15,307 nucleotides of DNA, taken from a virus (Duplodnaviria > Heunggongvirae > Uroviricota > Caudoviricetes). The stretch lies in IMG/VR virus record IMGVR_UViG_2617270953_000003, positions 1 to 15,307 of that record; one strand, 5' to 3'. Shown piece after piece: positions 1,637-8,809 of the stretch (within the stretch, counting starts at the first letter, position 1; each line of letters begins with the position of its first letter). A model generated the notes under the pieces. The model was not told the origin of the DNA. It worked only from the letters and a program-made list of their open reading frames with translations, and made no database searches. The translations under genes were made by a program, and so were the position numbers.

Positions 1637-2128
1637 TCACTCTCCTTTGATGCGAATGCCAGTGGTACTCATTCTCCTGATTTCCCAGAGCACACGAGGA
1701 ACACCACCGTTTCCGACCGGATCGCGCTTACTCCGCATGGCGACGCTTGATTCCGCCCAGCTTTTTCTTGGAGGAAGCTCTTTCACACGAACAAAACCAG
1801 CTGCGCGAAGAGATGCTCCTGATTCATCTGCCTGGGTGTACGTAATACAACGTTGATAACCCATAGCCTTTGCTGCCCGCCAGACAGCACCATAAAGCGC
1901 GCTGTTAGCGTTGCGTTCTCCTGTGGTACATGTGCGATTTACTTCAAGCGTTAATCCATCGTCCAAATGTCGTGCAACAGGTCGACCAGCTGTCGCCACA
2001 CCTATCAATTCTCCGGCATTATTTCTCAGACCAATGCTGAATTTATGCCCCACTGGTGGTTTATTGTGTCGGTGGTGCTGTGCGATAAATTCCTGCGCCG
2101 CTTTCAGCGTTATAGGTGAAATGACCAT
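1637..2128 (-). CDS. hypothetical protein (163 aa), possibly GNAT-fold-like
   Basis: ATG at 2126-2128 with AGGAGG RBS; overlaps the upstream stop by 1 nt (TGATG). Weak GNAT-like pattern (...GVATAG..., ...ALYGAVWRAAKAMGY...AAGF). Confidence 0.5.
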   Translation of the reverse strand: MVISPITLKAAQEFIAQHHRHNKPPVGHKFSIGLRNNAGELIGVATAGRPVARHLDDGLTLEVNRTCTTGERNANSALYGAVWRAAKAMGYQRCITYTQADESGASLRAAGFVRVKELPPRKSWAESSVAMRSKRDPVGNGGVPRVLWEIRRMSTTGIRIKGE

Positions 2129-2607
2129 CACTCAGACTCCTCCTTGATGCCAGCGGCGCGGGAATCATTCCATCGCTTTACTTCTTCACTAATTACGTCA
2201 ATGCATTCTTTCGAATCCATTAGGTAATCTTCATCAAAAAGACGTTCCTGTTCGTTTTCTATCGCAACAATGATTGCTTCAACTAATTTTTGTGCCTGAG
2301 AATCACTTTCTAACTCTGCAATGCGCTTACTCCCATCCGAGATAACACCTTCGTAATACTCACGCTGCTCGTTGAGTTTTGATTTTGTCTCCTCAAGCTC
2401 AACACGCAGCTTCCCTACCGTTAGCGCAATATCCTCGTTCTCCTGGTCGCGGCGTTTGATGTATTGCTGGTTTCTTTCCCGTTCATCCAGTAGTGCCAGC
2501 ACAACCTGAGGTGTGACCTTCATACGAAATGCCAGCAATTTTTGTGGTGTGGCTGCTATTTTTATTGCTTCTGCCGCATCACGCAGTGCCTGATAGTCAA
2601 TTGTCAT
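2128..2607 (-). CDS. coiled-coil-rich phage protein (159 aa), Ea22-type slot
   Basis: ATG at 2605-2607 overlaps the upstream stop (ATGA). Sequence rich in E/K/R/L/Q heptad-like stretches. Confidence 0.5.
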   Translation of the reverse strand: MTIDYQALRDAAEAIKIAATPQKLLAFRMKVTPQVVLALLDERERNQQYIKRRDQENEDIALTVGKLRVELEETKSKLNEQREYYEGVISDGSKRIAELESDSQAQKLVEAIIVAIENEQERLFDEDYLMDSKECIDVISEEVKRWNDSRAAGIKEESE

Positions 2608-4829: not shown

Positions 4830-4988
4830 TTATGGCGATACCAGAGAGCTTTCTGCGTGTACATGCGTCTCTGTAACTTGCTCTCCTTCACTGTGGTTGC
4901 AAGTGACATGAATATCTCCTTCGTTACCGATTAAATCTTTCATCTGACGAATGAATTCTTCGTCTGACCAGTTATCTGTAAAACTCAT
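4830..4988 (-). CDS. small hypothetical protein (52 aa) in the kil position
   Basis: ATG at 4986-4988 overlaps the stop of the CIII-like gene (ATGA coupling); no recognisable family. Confidence 0.4.
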   Translation of the reverse strand: MSFTDNWSDEEFIRQMKDLIGNEGDIHVTCNHSEGEQVTETHVHAESSLVSP

Positions 4989-5155
4989 GGGCGGCCTTGT
5001 TGTTTCAAAATATCCCAAAGCTTTTCGAGCAAGCTTTTCATTCTTGGTTGTTTAAAGTCTGCTCCGGTTAAAATATTTTTTCGTGAATGCTGCACCGATA
5101 AAATCGGGTTGAAAGGGCGAACCGATGCCGCCCCTGCAATAGCGAACTGTTGCAT
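4985..5155 (-). CDS. CIII-like protein (56 aa; FtsH/HflB inhibitor family)
   Basis: Start MQQFAIAG resembles lambda CIII MQYAIAG; amphipathic LLEKLWDILKQ segment; AAGGAG RBS 6 nt upstream of ATG at 5153-5155. Confidence 0.5.
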   Translation of the reverse strand: MQQFAIAGAASVRPFNPILSVQHSRKNILTGADFKQPRMKSLLEKLWDILKQQGRP

Positions 5156-5238
5156 AGGATGCTCCTTCTGTTTGATTGCATAACGAAAATGCCTCTCGTG
5201 AAGCATTATTGGTATGCGGTAAAGCCGCGCTTGGCGGC

Positions 5239-5655
5239 TTATTTGAAGATTTCTATGAAATCAAGAACTGATGATATTTCGTGGTTGAACGATTTTCTTT
5301 TGTATCTTTCTATCGCAGAATCCACCTGGTGTTTATAGTCATCGTCGTTTGAGTATTTAACGAAGCATTCTATTGTCTCAGGCGTTACAGCTATAAGGCT
5401 CCACCAACCTTCATCAGATTGATATTCAAATCCCATGCTTTCAAGCCATCCAGCATATTTCCCTCCAGCATCTTGCCAGTGTGTTTTTTCTGCAAGGAAG
5501 CTGTTAACCGTCATATGTGCATCAAGGCATTTATCCAACTGTTTACCATTAAGTAGCCATGCGCTGACAGTTGCACAACCCAAATCAACTGATTGAGTAG
5601 AGATATTGAATTGGTCGTAATTATCTGGATTAACCAGAATATCTGTAATTTTCAT
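5239..5655 (-). CDS. hypothetical acidic, Trp-rich protein (138 aa), ea10-position cargo
   Basis: ATG at 5653-5655 with GGAGG RBS at 4 nt; immediately preceded by an intrinsic terminator; no family recognised. Confidence 0.55.
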   Translation of the reverse strand: MKITDILVNPDNYDQFNISTQSVDLGCATVSAWLLNGKQLDKCLDAHMTVNSFLAEKTHWQDAGGKYAGWLESMGFEYQSDEGWWSLIAVTPETIECFVKYSNDDDYKHQVDSAIERYKRKSFNHEISSVLDFIEIFK

Positions 5656-5667
5656 AATTCCTCCGTC

Positions 5668-5696
5668 AAAAAAATTGCCCTCACACTGGAGGGCAA
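5668..5696 (-). terminator. intrinsic terminator within the pL operon (8-bp stem ttgccctc/gagggcaa, 6-nt loop, T7 tail on minus strand)
   Basis: Perfect 8-bp inverted repeat at 5675-5682 and 5689-5696 with an A7 run at 5668-5674 (T7 on the minus strand). Confidence 0.6.
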
Positions 5697-5830
5697 AGAA
5701 GATTTCCAATAATCAGAACAAGTCGGCTCCTGTTTAGTTACGAGCGACATTGCTCCGTGTATTCACTCGTTGGAATGAATACACAGTGCAGTGTTTATTC
5801 TGTTGTTTATGCCAAAAATGAAGGCCACCA

Positions 5831-6031
5831 TCAGGCAGCCTTGTTGTTCTGTTTACCAAGTTCTCTGGCAATCATTGCCGTCGTTCGTATTGCCCATTTA
5901 TCGACATATTTCCCATCCTCCATTACAGGAAACATTTCTTCAGGCTTAACCATGCATTCCGATTGCAGCTTGCATCCATTGCATCGCTTGAATTGTCCAC
6001 ACCATTGATTTTTATCAATAGTCGTAGTCAT
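5831..6031 (-). CDS. ral: Ral restriction-alleviation protein (66 aa)
   Basis: Sequence MTTTIDKNQWCGQFKRCNGCKLQSEC... matches my recall of lambda Ral; correct size and position downstream of N. Confidence 0.6.
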   Translation of the reverse strand: MTTTIDKNQWCGQFKRCNGCKLQSECMVKPEEMFPVMEDGKYVDKWAIRTTAMIARELGKQNNKAA

Positions 6032-6159: not shown

Positions 6160-6543
6160 TCATCTCGCCGTCAGTTGTTTTGATTTCCGGTATCCTGCTG
6201 CGTAAAGAGCTACATTTGGAAGACATACACCAGTTTCTGGTTGCTTATGTCCAAACTCATTCGCGTACACAATGGCCGCTCTCTCCAGATTGCGTCTGTA
6301 TTCTTTCTGTTGCCAGATCACGTCCTGTGCCATGAACTTAATTGGCTTAGCGTCTTCTATGCGCTCAGGCGTTTCGTGAGTACCTTTAGCCTGAATCTGC
6401 GCTCTGCTTAGAGTAGGGCGGTGTAATACTTCTGAACTTATTGCTTCTTCGCGGGCCAGTACGCCGTTAGCTAATGCCTTTGCCTTTAAACGCTCACGAC
6501 GACGAGAACGTGAATTGCCTTTGAACTGAGTTCTGCGTGTCAT
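6160..6543 (-). CDS. N: N-type transcription antiterminator, P22 gene-24-like (127 aa)
   Basis: AGGAGG RBS 6 nt upstream of ATG at 6541-6543; N-terminal arginine-rich motif RRTQFKGNSRSRRRERLKAK; C-terminus ...VALYAAGYRKSKQLTAR resembles P22 N; first gene after pL and nutL. Confidence 0.7.
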   Translation of the reverse strand: MTRRTQFKGNSRSRRRERLKAKALANGVLAREEAISSEVLHRPTLSRAQIQAKGTHETPERIEDAKPIKFMAQDVIWQQKEYRRNLERAAIVYANEFGHKQPETGVCLPNVALYAAGYRKSKQLTAR

Positions 6544-6671
6544 ATAGACCTCCTGGTGAACTTTGGCGGTGAATACAGCCGGGCGACTAACTCCGGTAGC
6601 GTAATCATTGCAAAGCGCCTCCGCCGAGAAGGTTAGCTTCTGCATTCACCCCAAAGTTCACTTTGGTTATT

Positions 6672-6686
6672 GCGCTTTGTCAGCGC
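6672..6686 (-). promoter_or_regulatory. nutL boxB hairpin, P22 type (GCGCUGACAAAGCGC on the transcript)
   Basis: Plus strand gcgctttgtcagcgc is the reverse complement of GCGCTGACAAAGCGC: 5-bp stem with GACAA loop, between pL and N. Confidence 0.7.
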
Positions 6687-6754
6687 CGTAGATTCATATT
6701 TGAATCGTTGTATATTCACCGCCCTGGTGAGTAGTGCGTCCTGCTGATGTGTTT

Positions 6755-6817
6755 AGTATCACCGCCAGTGGTATTTATGTCAACACCGCTAGAGATAATT
6801 CATCACCGCAGATGGTT
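6755..6817 (-). promoter_or_regulatory. OL1-OL2-OL3 operators and pL promoter (lambda immunity type)
   Basis: 17-mers tatcaccgccagtggta (6757-6773), caacaccgctagagata (6781-6797), catcaccgcagatggtt (6801-6817); on the minus strand -35 TTGACA (6778-6783) and -10 GATACT (6755-6760). Confidence 0.85.
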
Positions 6818-7003: not shown

Positions 7004-7382
7004 TTAGGAATCAAGGTCAGGTAGCATGATTTTCTCAATCAACGTCAATGCCCTTTGGTCTCGTTCAGCAAAATATTTAGGAGCGTACTGAGGCAGCCAC
7101 ACTTCGTTGAAGTATTGTTTGAAATCTGCAATATTCGTTTGGGTATAGACGTACCGGGAATGTCCGGCCATCTGGGTACTCATGGTTATATGTTGGGAAT
7201 GTCTTCGGCTCACCCCCCCGGTTGTCACGGAGCCATTGCGAGAAAACCCTACCCTCTGAAATATCAGGGACCATTTTTTCTGGCAGCGTATATCCGGCCT
7301 GTTCAAGTGGCGCAACCAAGTTAAACGTCAGTTCATTAAGCATAGAAAAGTGCGTATGAGGAACTCTGCCTCGGTTTGTCAT
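7004..7382 (-). CDS. rex-slot ORF split across two frames: frame A 7077-7382 (101 aa) and frame B 7004-7327 (+1 offset); possible frameshifted gene
   Basis: Two overlapping minus-strand ORFs offset by +1 share a C7 tract (7213-7219; G7 on the coding strand) and an A6/T6 tract (7275-7280). Frame B ends 10 nt before the terminator; frame A has a poor RBS. Confidence 0.35.
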
Positions 7383-7421
7383 ATACCGCTTAAGGTGGAT
7401 AGGGAGTTCGGCAGGCGCTCT

Positions 7422-7763
7422 TTAACCTGACATCCACTCACGCACCCATCTCGATACTTGCACTGCAAATTTTGGAGATAGCCACTGAGCTAAATTAATT
7501 GCGATGTCTGGATGAACCCAAGTCCCTTGATTCTCTGCTCTTCCGCCTTTAAATGATTGAATTAACTCCGATATGGGAATCCCCATATCGCGTGATAATT
7601 CATCAAAAAAATCTTGTGTTGTTTTTAGTCGTGTATAGTCAGCAAGTAGCTTCCCCGCAGACTTGCACATCGCGGTGGCATTGATGTATCCGTCTTTGGT
7701 GCGAAGATGGATGACTTCTCCATCAACTTCTCTAGCGATTAATGCAAGTTGAAATTGTGTCAT
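7422..7763 (-). CDS. KilA-N domain protein (113 aa), directly downstream of cI
   Basis: Motifs DGYINATAMCK...GTWVHPDIAINLAQWLSPKFAVQVSRWV are typical of the KilA-N (APSES-like) DNA-binding domain; AGGA RBS; starts 31 nt after the cI stop. Confidence 0.75.
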   Translation of the reverse strand: MTQFQLALIAREVDGEVIHLRTKDGYINATAMCKSAGKLLADYTRLKTTQDFFDELSRDMGIPISELIQSFKGGRAENQGTWVHPDIAINLAQWLSPKFAVQVSRWVREWMSG

Positions 7764-7794: not shown

Positions 7795-8511
<717 letters not shown>

Positions 8512-8518
8512 TTAAATC

Positions 8519-8584
8519 TATCACCGCAAGGGATAAACTTCTAACACCGTGCGTGTTGACTATTTTACCTCTAGCGGTGATAAT
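8519..8584. promoter_or_regulatory. OR3-OR2-OR1 operators with divergent pRM (minus) and pR (plus) promoters
   Basis: OR3 tatcaccgcaagggata (8519-8535), OR2 taacaccgtgcgtgttg (8542-8558), OR1 tacctctagcggtgata (8566-8582); pR -35 TTGACT (8556-8561) and -10 GATAAT (8579-8584) with 17-bp spacing. Confidence 0.9.
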
Positions 8585-8608
8585 GGTTGCCTGTACTAAG
8601 GAGGTTGT

Positions 8609-8809
8609 ATGGAACAACGCATAACCCTGAAAGATTATGCAATACGCTTTGGGCAAACCAAGACGGCTAAAGATCTCGGCGTATATCAAAGCGCGATTAA
8701 CAAGGCCATTCATGCAGGCCGAAAGATTTTTTTAACTATAAACGCTGATGGAAGCGTTTATGCGGAAGAAATAAAGCCCTTCCCAAGTAACAAAAAAACA
8801 ACTGCATAA
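8609..8809 (+). CDS. cro: Cro repressor, lambda type (66 aa)
   Basis: Sequence matches my recall of lambda Cro apart from about two conservative substitutions; AAGGAGG RBS. Confidence 0.95.

What the first reader, a model, noticed from the sequence alone, without database searches (positions are those of the whole stretch)
5239..5696. Unknown acidic, Trp-rich 138-aa protein placed directly behind an intrinsic terminator in the pL operon
A strong terminator (8-bp stem, T7 tail) sits immediately upstream of the GGAGG RBS of this gene, so its expression should depend on N-mediated antitermination, which makes it a delayed-early function. The protein is acidic and Trp-rich and matches no family I recognise. 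This slot, between ral and cIII, commonly holds anti-restriction or host-takeover genes, so it is a candidate anti-defence protein.
Basis: partly seen in the sequence, partly recalled or inferred. Interest (0 to 1): 0.55.

Follow-up and report, generated by a model that had tools for sequence, protein, structure and literature searches.

The report
Orphan early phage gene behind PreS terminator
A real but functionally unknown 138-residue phage protein sits in a swappable slot of a lambda-like prophage, right behind a terminator already known as lambda tL2a and the end of the PreS small RNA; nothing yet shows that it blocks bacterial defences.

Summary
A 138-aa ORF lies on the minus strand (5239-5655). 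It has a GGAGG ribosome-binding site and an 8-bp/T7 terminator hairpin just upstream.

The terminator is not specific to this gene. It is the homologue of lambda tL2a, which is also the 3' end of the published Hfq-dependent sRNA PreS/LPR1; the window copy matches lambda at 87 of 88 bases.

The ORF is a clean cassette. It replaces lambda ea10 between two conserved non-coding blocks of a P22/lambda-hybrid pL operon.

The gene is real: pN/pS is 0.14. It is rare, present in 37 of 5426 complete E. coli genomes, whereas 2242 match the surrounding 751-bp region.

It belongs to PHROG 8967 (function unknown). About 65%-identical orthologues occur in virulent rV5-like phages, and about 60 distant relatives in metagenomes.

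AlphaFold gives pLDDT 96, but no PDB or BFVD fold matches. It does not resemble Ocr or ArdA. No catalytic-type residue is conserved.

The Bas54 orthologue is non-essential in a published transposon screen, on K-12 and on one clinical isolate.

Best guess, at low confidence: a non-enzymatic accessory protein that binds a host protein. Anti-defence activity is plausible but unsupported.

The parts
5239..5655 (-). CDS of the 138-aa acidic protein (PHROG 8967 family). GC is 37.9% against 46% for the window.
   Evidence: Translation; composition; PHROG match E = 4e-87; pN/pS = 0.145 among 21 alleles; AF2 pLDDT 96.4.
5660..5664 (-). Shine-Dalgarno GGAGG, 4 nt upstream of the ATG. In the minimum-free-energy fold it pairs with UCUUCU at 5702-5697.
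   Evidence: Sequence; fold (z only -1.8). The junction GACGGAGGAATTATG is conserved in most lambdoid copies.
5668..5696 (-). Intrinsic terminator: stem-loop 5696-5675 plus T7 run 5674-5668. It is the homologue of lambda tL2a.
   Evidence: Scan; alignment to lambda and Sf6; Sf6 annotation 'terminator, homology to phage lambda; tL2A'.
5668..5756 (-). Homologue of the lambda Hfq-dependent sRNA PreS (LPR1), about 88 nt, whose 3' end is tL2a.
   Evidence: 87 of 88 bases identical to lambda plus one extra T. The location between ral and ea10 and the identity of the 3' end with tL2a are stated in bioRxiv 10.1101/2024.10.31.621285.
5757..5830 (-). Conserved non-coding block between the ral stop and PreS. 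It includes a 14-bp hairpin (5784-5757) and a terminator-like hairpin straight after ral (5842-5821). It overlaps the 'boundary sequence' bsq4 annotated in Sf6.
   Evidence: Near-invariant among the window, lambda and Sf6. The 168-nt fold gives -56.8 kcal/mol, z = -5.3. Scan; Sf6 annotation.
5831..6031 (-). ral (restriction alleviation), the upstream neighbour.
   Evidence: Pfam Ral, E = 1.6e-48, full length.
5188..5238 (-). Downstream boundary of the cassette. It has a hairpin GCCGC-CAAGC-GCGGC+TTT (5238-5221) that starts straight after the stop codon, and a second terminator-like hairpin (5207-5188). It is homologous to the lambda ea10-cIII intergenic region.
   Evidence: Alignment; scan; conserved in 23 viral contigs and, as GCCGCC...GCGGC+T-run, behind distant lambdoid homologues.
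4985..5155 (-). cIII-like gene (56 aa), the downstream neighbour.
   Evidence: Translation. The homologous DNA in HK140 and mEpX2 is annotated CIII. There is no Pfam hit at E <= 0.01, so the assignment rests on position, annotation and N-terminal similarity to lambda cIII.
6160..6645 (-). N-family antiterminator. This is the ORF as listed; the real start is probably further downstream, because the Pfam match covers residues 33-161.
   Evidence: Pfam N_peptide, E = 2.8e-16.
6672..6783 (-). pL promoter (TTGACA-17-GATACT, 6783-6755) and a nutL boxB-like hairpin GCGCTGACAAAGCGC (6686-6672).
   Evidence: Promoter scan; sequence. Identifying the boxB as P22-type and pL/OL as lambda-type rests on my own knowledge, not on a tool.

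Best explanation
The 138-aa ORF is a genuine, non-essential accessory gene. It is carried as a discrete cassette in the 'ea10 slot' of the early-left (pL) operon of a P22/lambda-hybrid prophage.

Expression. Transcription comes from pL. The N antiterminator carries RNA polymerase through the tL2 terminator cluster, so the gene is expressed only in lytic growth, as a delayed-early gene. The terminator in front of it is lambda tL2a, which is also the Hfq-binding 3' end of the sRNA PreS. Polymerases that stop there make PreS; those that read through make the mRNA for this protein.

Protein. It is small, cytoplasmic, acidic and mainly alpha-helical. It belongs to a phage-restricted family (PHROG 8967) and its confidently predicted fold has no solved relative. 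No catalytic-type or basic residue is conserved.

Inferred function. I infer that it acts stoichiometrically, by binding a host (or rival-element) protein during infection, as a counter-defence or host-takeover factor. I do not think it is an enzyme or a nucleic-acid binder.

Shown here: gene reality, cassette anatomy, terminator identity, family distribution, and dispensability of the orthologue.
Inferred: N-dependence (by homology with lambda and P22) and the binding mode of action.
For: Anatomy:
- ORF, ribosome-binding site and terminator are as described.
- The terminator and upstream block are near-identical to lambda tL2a/PreS (paper).
- The downstream junction is homologous to the lambda ea10-cIII spacer.
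- One contig (L020) carries Ea10 and this ORF in tandem, so the cassettes can stack.

Expression:
- No promoter-like site lies between ral and the ORF on the minus strand.
- pL, a boxB-like hairpin and an N-family gene lie upstream.

Reality of the gene:
- pN/pS = 0.145, with 22 of 38 polymorphic sites at third codon positions.
- 62 representative relatives at E < 1e-3.
- AF2 pLDDT 96.4 and pTM 0.88 with the deep alignment.

Not lysogeny-specific:
- Orthologues at roughly 65% identity occur in 115 phage records, by name mostly rV5-like Vequintavirinae.
- Only 2 relatives were found among species-representative genomes.

Accessory status:
- Present in 37 of 5426 E. coli genomes, whereas 2242 match the surrounding region.
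- bas54_0089 was called 'Non-essential', with 25 of 27 TA sites disrupted.

Non-enzymatic binder:
- Residues invariant or >=90% conserved are N12, D62, Y67, L71, G75, G83, W84, W85, A89 and F98. No His, Cys, Ser, Lys, Arg or Glu is among them.
- Net negative charge is conserved; the family median is -9.5.
- Mean column identity is 15% across the alignment.
- No partner gene is constant across contexts.

Neighbourhoods fit early 'host-interaction' regions: ral, abc2 and kil in the lambdoid phages; Macro, RtcB and dUTPase/ThyX elsewhere.
Against: There is no direct functional evidence.
- No hit to any PADLOC model. That library holds defence-system proteins, so it says little about anti-defence.
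- No sequence or fold match to any solved anti-defence protein.
- The Bas54 orthologue was not depleted on the uropathogenic isolate whose table I could read: log2FC +0.57, q = 0.90. No defence present there requires it.
- The strongly conserved 37-residue core, across very different phages, could equally mark a ligand pocket or a conserved housekeeping partner rather than an arms-race interface.
- The conserved Trp and Tyr may simply form the hydrophobic core.
- N-dependence is inferred by homology and was not measured.
Confidence: 0.4

Rival explanations
1. Accessory factor for phage DNA replication or recombination. For example, it could modulate a host DNA-metabolism protein (SSB, RecBCD or clamp-related) alongside the neighbouring recombination module and the replication-enhancing sRNA PreS.
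For: - In the lambdoid-type contexts examined (window, L001, L029, L031, L032, L162, L163) the gene lies upstream of a single-strand-annealing recombinase, with SSB also called in the window, L029 and L163. The recombinases are Erf, RecT or Rad52-type. cIII and kil lie between in the window, L001 and L163.
- A RecT homologue lies 2 kb upstream in a 113-kb contig.
- dUTPase and ThyX flank it in L036.
- In rV5-like phages it lies 4.5 kb after the DNA polymerase gene.
- PreS, directly upstream, boosts DnaN and lambda replication.
Against: - The recombinase family differs from phage to phage, so the link is positional (the pL operon) rather than specific.
- The protein is acidic and has no conserved basic residues, so it is unlikely to bind DNA.
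- The Bas54 orthologue is dispensable, with no fitness cost.
- Most lambdoid phages with the same flanks lack the gene.
Confidence: 0.2
2. Small-molecule binder ('sponge'). The conserved aromatic and polar core (N12, D62, Y67, W84, W85) would form a pocket that sequesters a host immune signal or metabolite.
For: - A 37-residue core with invariant Tyr and Trp and near-invariant Asp and Asn is conserved from enterobacterial phages to relatives found on MAG contigs labelled Gracilibacteria and Bacteriovoracales. That fits a target that does not vary between hosts.
- The size matches that of known phage sponges (my own knowledge).
- Macro-domain and RtcB genes lie nearby in some phages.
Against: - No conserved Lys, Arg or His is available to hold phosphates.
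- The overall negative charge disfavours nucleotide ligands.
- There is no fold similarity to any solved structure, and so none to any sponge in the PDB copy.
- The oligomeric state is unknown, and I could not inspect the model coordinates for a pocket.
Confidence: 0.12
3. Host-killing or host-shutoff factor in the manner of Kil. It would be toxic to the cell, and the double terminator flanking would keep it silent until N is made.
For: - It sits next to cIII-like and kil-type small early genes.
- In every context examined an unrelated intrinsic terminator lies upstream of the start codon (within about 25 nt in all but one), and a hairpin follows the stop in the lambdoid ones. That is what tight control of a toxic gene would look like.
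- It has no promoter of its own.
Against: - Terminators punctuate this part of lambda whatever gene is present: Ea10 has the same flanks.
- There are no toxicity data.
- It carries no membrane or known toxin signature.
Confidence: 0.13
4. Prophage-expressed 'moron' that protects the lysogen, by superinfection exclusion or defence.
For: - Low GC (37.9% against 46%) and a cassette-like structure with a downstream terminator.
- Another occupant of the same slot belongs to phrog_1510, labelled 'superinfection exclusion'.
Against: - No promoter-like site lies upstream.
- It lies inside the repressor-controlled pL operon, behind three terminator-like hairpins.
- Orthologues occur in phages named as rV5-like Vequintavirinae, which I take to be strictly virulent.
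- No PADLOC hit.
Confidence: 0.05

Closest known systems
PHROG 8967, including bas54_0089 of Escherichia phage MaxBurger (Bas54) and its Vequintavirus orthologues
   Same: True homologues. The HMM match is full-length (E = 4e-87). tblastn identities to the phage-record orthologues lie in the 60-80% band, 65-66% in the rows listed, with the same 138-aa length. All 60 aligned relatives hit this PHROG.
   Different: The family has no assigned function. The window copy sits in a temperate lambdoid pL operon. The Vequintavirus copies sit in a run of small unknown genes downstream of the DNA polymerase gene.
Lambda Ea10 (gene ea10; Pfam DUF2528 by my memory), the canonical occupant of the slot
   Same: Same position, between tL2a/PreS and the cIII-proximal hairpins. 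It is also small, acidic by inspection of its sequence, and of unknown role.
   Different: No detectable homology (hhalign probability 0.8%). The two can occur in tandem, so they are not simple alternatives.
Lambda terminator tL2a / sRNA PreS (LPR1)
   Same: The hairpin named in the finding is this element: 87 of 88 bases identical plus one extra T, in the same place after ral. This meets the paper's own conservation criterion of at least 92% identity and no more than 3 gaps.
   Different: The gene that follows it differs from lambda. Expression and Hfq binding of the window copy were not tested.
   Same: Small, acidic, early-expressed, and next to another anti-restriction gene (ral).
P22 gene-17-type protein (phrog_1510, 'superinfection exclusion') and Sf6 gp33/gp34, other occupants of the slot
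   Same: Alternative cassettes in the same ral-cIII interval behind tL2a.
   Different: Unrelated sequences (Sf6 gp34: hhalign probability 0.1%). Most are also of unknown function.

Membership tests
PHROG 8967 (uncharacterised phage protein family) | Full-length match to the family HMM | tested here: met
   E = 4.2e-87, residues 1-138 on profile positions 1-138. All 60 aligned relatives also match.
Lambda tL2a / PreS (LPR1) sRNA | Sequence conservation with lambda LPR1 (the paper's criterion: at least 92% identity and no more than 3 gaps) | tested here: met
   87 of 88 bases identical plus one 1-nt gap. The criterion is quoted.
Lambda tL2a / PreS (LPR1) sRNA | GC-rich hairpin plus poly-U 3' end, located after ral in the early-left operon | tested here: met
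   8-bp stem plus T7 run; position after ral; the paper's description.
Lambda tL2a / PreS (LPR1) sRNA | Accumulates as an RNA of about 88 or 68 nt in lytic growth, binds Hfq, and regulates dnaN | not testable with these tools
   Needs Northern blotting or RIL-seq on this prophage.
DNA-mimic anti-restriction proteins (Ocr, ArdA) | Sequence membership (Pfam Ocr or ArdA models) | tested here: not met
   No Pfam hit above noise; the best hits have E about 0.2 and are to unrelated families.
DNA-mimic anti-restriction proteins (Ocr, ArdA) | Fold similarity to solved DNA mimics | tested here: not met
DNA-mimic anti-restriction proteins (Ocr, ArdA) | Extreme surface negative charge imitating a DNA backbone | tested here: inconclusive
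   pI 4.65, net charge -10, 16% D+E but 8.7% K+R. The family is uniformly acidic. I could not examine the model coordinates to map the charges.
DNA-mimic anti-restriction proteins (Ocr, ArdA) | Inhibits type I restriction enzymes | not testable with these tools
   Needs plaque or EOP assays on restricting hosts.
Moron (autonomously expressed prophage cassette) | Own promoter upstream of the gene | tested here: not met
   No sigma-70-like site on the minus strand between ral and the ORF.
Moron (autonomously expressed prophage cassette) | Downstream terminator and deviant base composition | tested here: met
   Hairpins at 5238-5221 and 5207-5188. GC is 37.9% against 46%.
Lambda Ea10 family | Detectable homology to lambda Ea10 | tested here: not met
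   hhalign probability 0.8% over 4 columns.
N-dependent delayed-early gene of a lambdoid pL operon | Lies downstream of pL, nutL, N and at least one intrinsic terminator, on the same strand | tested here: met
   pL at 6783-6755, boxB-like hairpin at 6686-6672, N_peptide ORF, and terminators at 5842 and 5696.
N-dependent delayed-early gene of a lambdoid pL operon | Transcript level depends on N | not testable with these tools
   Needs RNA measurements in N+ and N- backgrounds.

The most novel reading that the evidence does not exclude
The protein founds a new counter-defence (or host-takeover) family with a previously unseen fold. The family is shared by temperate lambdoid and virulent rV5-like coliphages and by distant environmental phages. 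Its invariant Tyr/Trp/Asp core is the business end, either as a binding site for a widely conserved immune component or as a pocket for a signalling molecule.
Probability: 0.25. Interest if true: 0.6.

Novelty: new member of a known kind. Interest (0 to 1): 0.35.

Why it matters
If the protein proves to be a counter-defence or host-takeover factor, it would add a family with an unseen fold. That family spans a model temperate phage lineage and a group of virulent phages.

The more immediate lesson is a correction. The 'strong terminator' is the already described tL2a/PreS element. The ral-cIII slot is mostly empty or filled with proteins of unknown function, so position alone is weak evidence for anti-defence.

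The cassette also gives a natural test of how read-through of an sRNA terminator feeds translation of the gene immediately behind it.

Tried and rejected
Searches that gave nothing:
- Pfam, NCBIfam and PADLOC scans of the protein, and a Pfam scan of all 60 relatives.
- PDB sequence searches with the single protein and with the profile: nothing below E = 0.2.
- The afdb50 and afdb_sample libraries were unavailable.
- The first AF2 run, with 9 close sequences, was poor (pLDDT 66) and I did not use it.
- Homology to lambda Ea10 and to Sf6 gp34: rejected.
- Rfam: no family reached threshold anywhere in the window. PreS matched no Rfam family.

Literature:
- Text searches for the protein's core peptide in the supplements of two phage accessory-gene screens found nothing, though one of the searched files was truncated.
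- Searches for phrog_8967 and for tL2a in the paper library gave nothing useful.

Context analysis:
- I looked for a constant neighbour gene across distant homologues and found none.
- Domain fusions in longer relatives (P0037, P0052, P0066) have no recognisable partner domain.
- A profile search of the 5.8-billion-protein set added no named relatives.

Explanations considered and rejected:
- A non-coding or spurious ORF: pN/pS, 60+ homologues and the confident fold all argue against it.
- A classical moron: there is no promoter.
- A lysogeny-specific function: orthologues occur in virulent phages.

Full report
**1. What is in the sequence**

The feature lies on the minus strand. An ORF runs from ATG 5655 to the stop at 5239 and encodes 138 aa. 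GGAGG lies at 5664-5660. A hairpin with 8 pairs (5 G-C) and a 6-nt loop lies at 5696-5675, followed by seven T at 5674-5668.

The protein has pI 4.65 and 22 D+E against 12 K+R. It has 5 Trp (3.6%) and 3 Cys. Its GC content is 37.9% against 46% for the window.

**2. Context**

The minus strand carries a lambdoid early-left operon:
- pL (TTGACA-17-GATACT, 6783-6755).
- A boxB-like hairpin GCGCTGACAAAGCGC (6686-6672). I recognise it as P22-type from memory.
- An N-family ORF (Pfam N_peptide).
- ral (5831-6031, Pfam Ral, E = 1.6e-48).
- The 138-aa ORF.
- A cIII-like gene (ATG 5155).
- A small 'recombinase'-PHROG ORF, then Erf, SSB and the anti-RecBCD protein Abc2.
- Further unknown genes, including a Mom-like protein.

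There is no sigma-70-like site on the minus strand between ral and the ORF.

**3. The terminator is a known element**

Aligning the region upstream of the ORF with lambda and with Sf6 shows about 150 nearly invariant bases. They end exactly at the hairpin and T-run.

The Sf6 record annotates the same hairpin as 'terminator; homology to phage lambda; tL2A', and annotates an overlapping 'boundary sequence'. In lambda the gene behind this hairpin is ea10.

A 2024 preprint (10.1101/2024.10.31.621285) reports an Hfq-dependent sRNA between ea10 and ral. It is about 88 nt long, is processed to about 68 nt, and is named LPR1 or PreS. [quoted passage not shown] It is made in the lytic cycle and raises DnaN translation and lambda replication. 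The authors found it in 2,537 genomes.

The last 88 nt before the T-run end in the window (5756-5668) match lambda at 87 of 88 positions, plus one extra T. So the 'strong terminator' is the conserved 3' end of an sRNA gene and a member of lambda's tL2 cluster. It is not a control element that evolved for this ORF.

N-dependent, delayed-early expression is a fair inference. It applies to everything distal to the first pL terminator, and it was not measured here.

**4. The ORF is a cassette in a variable slot**

The sequence after the stop codon is homologous to the lambda ea10-cIII spacer. It comprises the hairpin GCCGC-CAAGC-GCGGC+TTT and then a second terminator-like hairpin at 5207-5188. The ORF therefore replaces ea10 precisely between two conserved non-coding blocks.

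In 20 of 23 lambdoid viral contigs with an intact copy of the ORF, the upstream junction is the same tL2a hairpin followed by a GA(C/T)GGAG(G/A)AAT(T/G)ATG junction. Two have another gene inserted between tL2a and the ORF. In one of these (L020) that gene is Ea10 itself, so the cassettes can stack.

The 751-bp region (ORF plus flanks) finds matches, mostly to the flanks only, in 2242 of 5426 complete E. coli genomes. The ORF itself is in 37.

I sampled 70 IMG/VR contigs that carry the exact tL2a hairpin:
- about half have no gene in the slot;
- 23 have Ea10;
- 5-7 have an Sf6-gp33-like protein;
- 3 have a protein of phrog_1510 ('superinfection exclusion');
- 1 has a 106-aa protein of unknown function;
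- 1 has this ORF.

All but phrog_1510 are of unknown function. The claim that the slot 'commonly holds anti-restriction or host-takeover genes' is therefore not borne out.

**5. The gene is real and belongs to a phage-only family**

Among 21 distinct lambdoid alleles, pN/pS is 0.145, and 22 of 38 polymorphic sites are third codon positions.

There is no Pfam, NCBIfam or PADLOC hit. There is a full-length match to PHROG 8967, function unknown.

tblastn finds 115 phage records, all at 60-80% identity. By organism name they are mostly Escherichia phages of the rV5-like Vequintavirinae (V5, FV3, V18, APECc02, and BASEL phages Bas49-59). No lambdoid phage in that collection carries the gene.

An exhaustive profile search of 1.84 billion representatives gives 62 relatives at E < 1e-3, mostly 110-160 aa. 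Motif-guided scans found few of them in viral contigs and only two in 185,579 species genomes, both on MAG contigs.

The family core is [IV]xPxNxxx[YF]D ... DWGGxYAx[WF]Lxxx G[IF]xxx[ST][DE]NGWW[SN]xxA[VI]xPxNIxxF. Y67, L71 and W84 are invariant. N12, D62, G75, G83, W85, A89 and F98 are at least 90% conserved. No His, Cys, Ser, Lys, Arg or Glu is conserved. Acidity is a family trait: median pI 4.69 and net charge -9.5.

**6. Structure**

With the 60-sequence alignment, AlphaFold2 gives pLDDT 96.4 and pTM 0.88. The model has six helices and two tiny beta-bridges.

None of three fold searches gives a significant match:
- Foldseek against the whole PDB: best E = 2.
- Foldseek against BFVD: best E = 0.85.

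The fold therefore has no solved relative. In particular it is not Ocr-, ArdA-, Gam- or Arn-like, and it resembles no solved sponge. The AFDB libraries were unavailable.

**7. Contexts of relatives**

In other lambdoid prophages the homologue keeps the same relative place. These are Dryocola (L162), a Logan contig (L163), and three 44-47-kb viral contigs. The gene lies downstream of the S24-type repressor or N, and upstream of a recombinase (cIII and kil lie between in L163). The recombinase differs between phages: RecT, Rad52-type or Erf, with SSB in two of them.

In rV5-like phages it lies in a run of small unknown genes 4.5 kb after the DNA polymerase gene, with a Macro-domain gene 1.1 kb downstream. 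Elsewhere it abuts RtcB (L033), or dUTPase and ThyX (L036). No neighbour is constant.

In every context an unrelated intrinsic terminator lies upstream of the gene, directly before the ribosome-binding site in all but L029 (about 45 nt away). In the lambdoid ones other than L029, a GCCGCC...GCGGC+T-run hairpin abuts the stop codon.

**8. Experimental data on an orthologue**

Bas54 is Escherichia phage MaxBurger, and its gene bas54_0089 (77700-78116) is the orthologue.

In the HIDEN-SEQ transposon study (10.1101/2025.11.20.689424), 25 of its 27 TA sites were disrupted and it was called 'Non-essential' on E. coli K-12. In the resampling table it was not depleted: log2FC +0.57, q = 0.90. The strong depletion of bas54_0063 and bas54_0140 in that table identifies it as K-12 against clinical isolate CFE311.

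The two resampling sheets held as text carry identical numbers. I therefore cannot read the CFE303 result separately.

**9. Interpretation**

Shown:
- A real, selected, dispensable accessory cassette, expressed (by position) only from pL.
- A phage-restricted family shared by temperate and virulent phages.
- A confident fold with no known relative and no catalytic signature.

Inferred: it acts by binding. The most likely target is a host or rival-element protein, possibly a basic, nucleic-acid-handling one given the conserved acidity, as a counter-defence or host-takeover factor. I put about 0.4 on this package. Confidence is high for the descriptive part and about 0.3 for counter-defence specifically.

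Rivals:
- A replication or recombination accessory (0.2). The positional association is real, but the recombinase type varies, and the Bas54 orthologue is dispensable.
- A small-molecule sponge (0.12). The core is conserved and aromatic, but it has no basic residues.
- A Kil-like toxic shutoff factor (0.13).
- A lysogen-protecting moron (0.05). There is no promoter, and orthologues occur in virulent phages.

**10. Novelty and score**

The terminator, the sRNA and the operon logic are already known. The protein is a new, uncharacterised member of a familiar kind, the non-essential early accessory genes of phages.

It is a reasonable candidate for anti-defence screens. Position alone is weak evidence, and the one relevant screen was negative. 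Interest: 0.35.

Noticed in passing
window 5668-5756 (-): A near-identical copy of the lambda Hfq-dependent sRNA PreS/LPR1 (87 of 88 bases plus one extra T). It ends in the hairpin that the finding called a terminator. No Rfam family matched it.
   Followed up: yes
window 5757-5842 (-): The rest of the ral-to-PreS spacer is almost invariant between this window, lambda and Sf6. The 168-nt stretch folds much better than shuffles (z = -5.3). It has a perfect 14-bp hairpin (5784-5757) abutting the PreS 5' end, and a terminator-like hairpin straight after ral. Its function is unknown; it may be a processing or boundary element.
   Followed up: partly
window 5697-5702 and 5659-5664 (-): In read-through RNA, the UCUUCU just 5' of the tL2a stem can pair with the GGAGGA Shine-Dalgarno of the 138-aa gene, extending the terminator stem (minimum-free-energy structure, z only -1.8). 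By eye, lambda can form a similar 5-bp pairing with the ea10 ribosome-binding site. This could couple PreS/Hfq binding to translation, or it could be chance.
   Followed up: partly
window 7077-7763 (-): Between cI and pL, where lambda carries rexAB, two ORFs match the N-terminal (KilA-N) and middle parts of the BstA abortive-infection protein (phrog_6287). They are in the same frame, separated by one in-frame stop (7424-7422). The C-terminus continues in another frame. It looks like a disrupted bstA.
   Followed up: partly
L162, L163, L028, L029, L031, L032, upstream and downstream of the homologue: Every homologue examined is preceded by an unrelated intrinsic terminator. In all but L029 it sits directly before the ribosome-binding site (hairpin plus T-run ending within about 25 nt of the start codon); in L029 it is about 45 nt away. 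The rV5-like phage follows the same pattern. In the lambdoid loci other than L029, the gene is followed by a GCCGCC...GCGGC+T-run hairpin that abuts the stop codon. The gene seems to travel as a terminator-bracketed unit.
   Followed up: partly
L163 about 4925-4990 (+): The region upstream of the homologue in a different lambdoid phage shares a 19-of-22-base stretch with the central part of PreS (TAGTTCTGATAGATGGAAATCC against TTGTTCTGATTATTGGAAATCT). Its terminator hairpin is different. It may be a diverged PreS variant.
   Followed up: no
window 5178-5244 (+): A weak, sub-threshold Rfam match to isrK (18 bits against a gathering score of 50, E = 0.28). It lies antisense to the spacer between the ORF and cIII and is probably chance.
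   Followed up: no
window 6672-6783 (-) and 7795-8809: The immunity region is a hybrid. pL/OL and pR look lambda-type, with a 237-aa CI and a 66-aa Cro. They are combined with a P22-type boxB and, further left, P22-type erf and abc2. The lambda-type and P22-type identifications are from my own knowledge.
   Followed up: no
window 1637-2131 (-): A Mom-like DNA modification protein (phrog_1384, E = 4e-44) lies in the distal pL operon. Related E. coli prophages carry an 'Nmad5 family nucleotide modification protein' next to the 138-aa gene.
   Followed up: no
NZ_CP082824.1 (E. coli SCAID URN1-2021), hit H106: This genome has four separate places matching the 138-aa gene, whereas the median genome that carries it has one.
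   Followed up: no
L033 3884-4879 (+); proteins P0037, P0052, P0066: Some distant relatives carry C-terminal extensions, giving proteins of 179-331 aa. One has a CxxC...CxxC zinc-ribbon-like tail, and another lies directly upstream of an RtcB RNA ligase gene. None of the extensions matches a known domain.
   Followed up: partly
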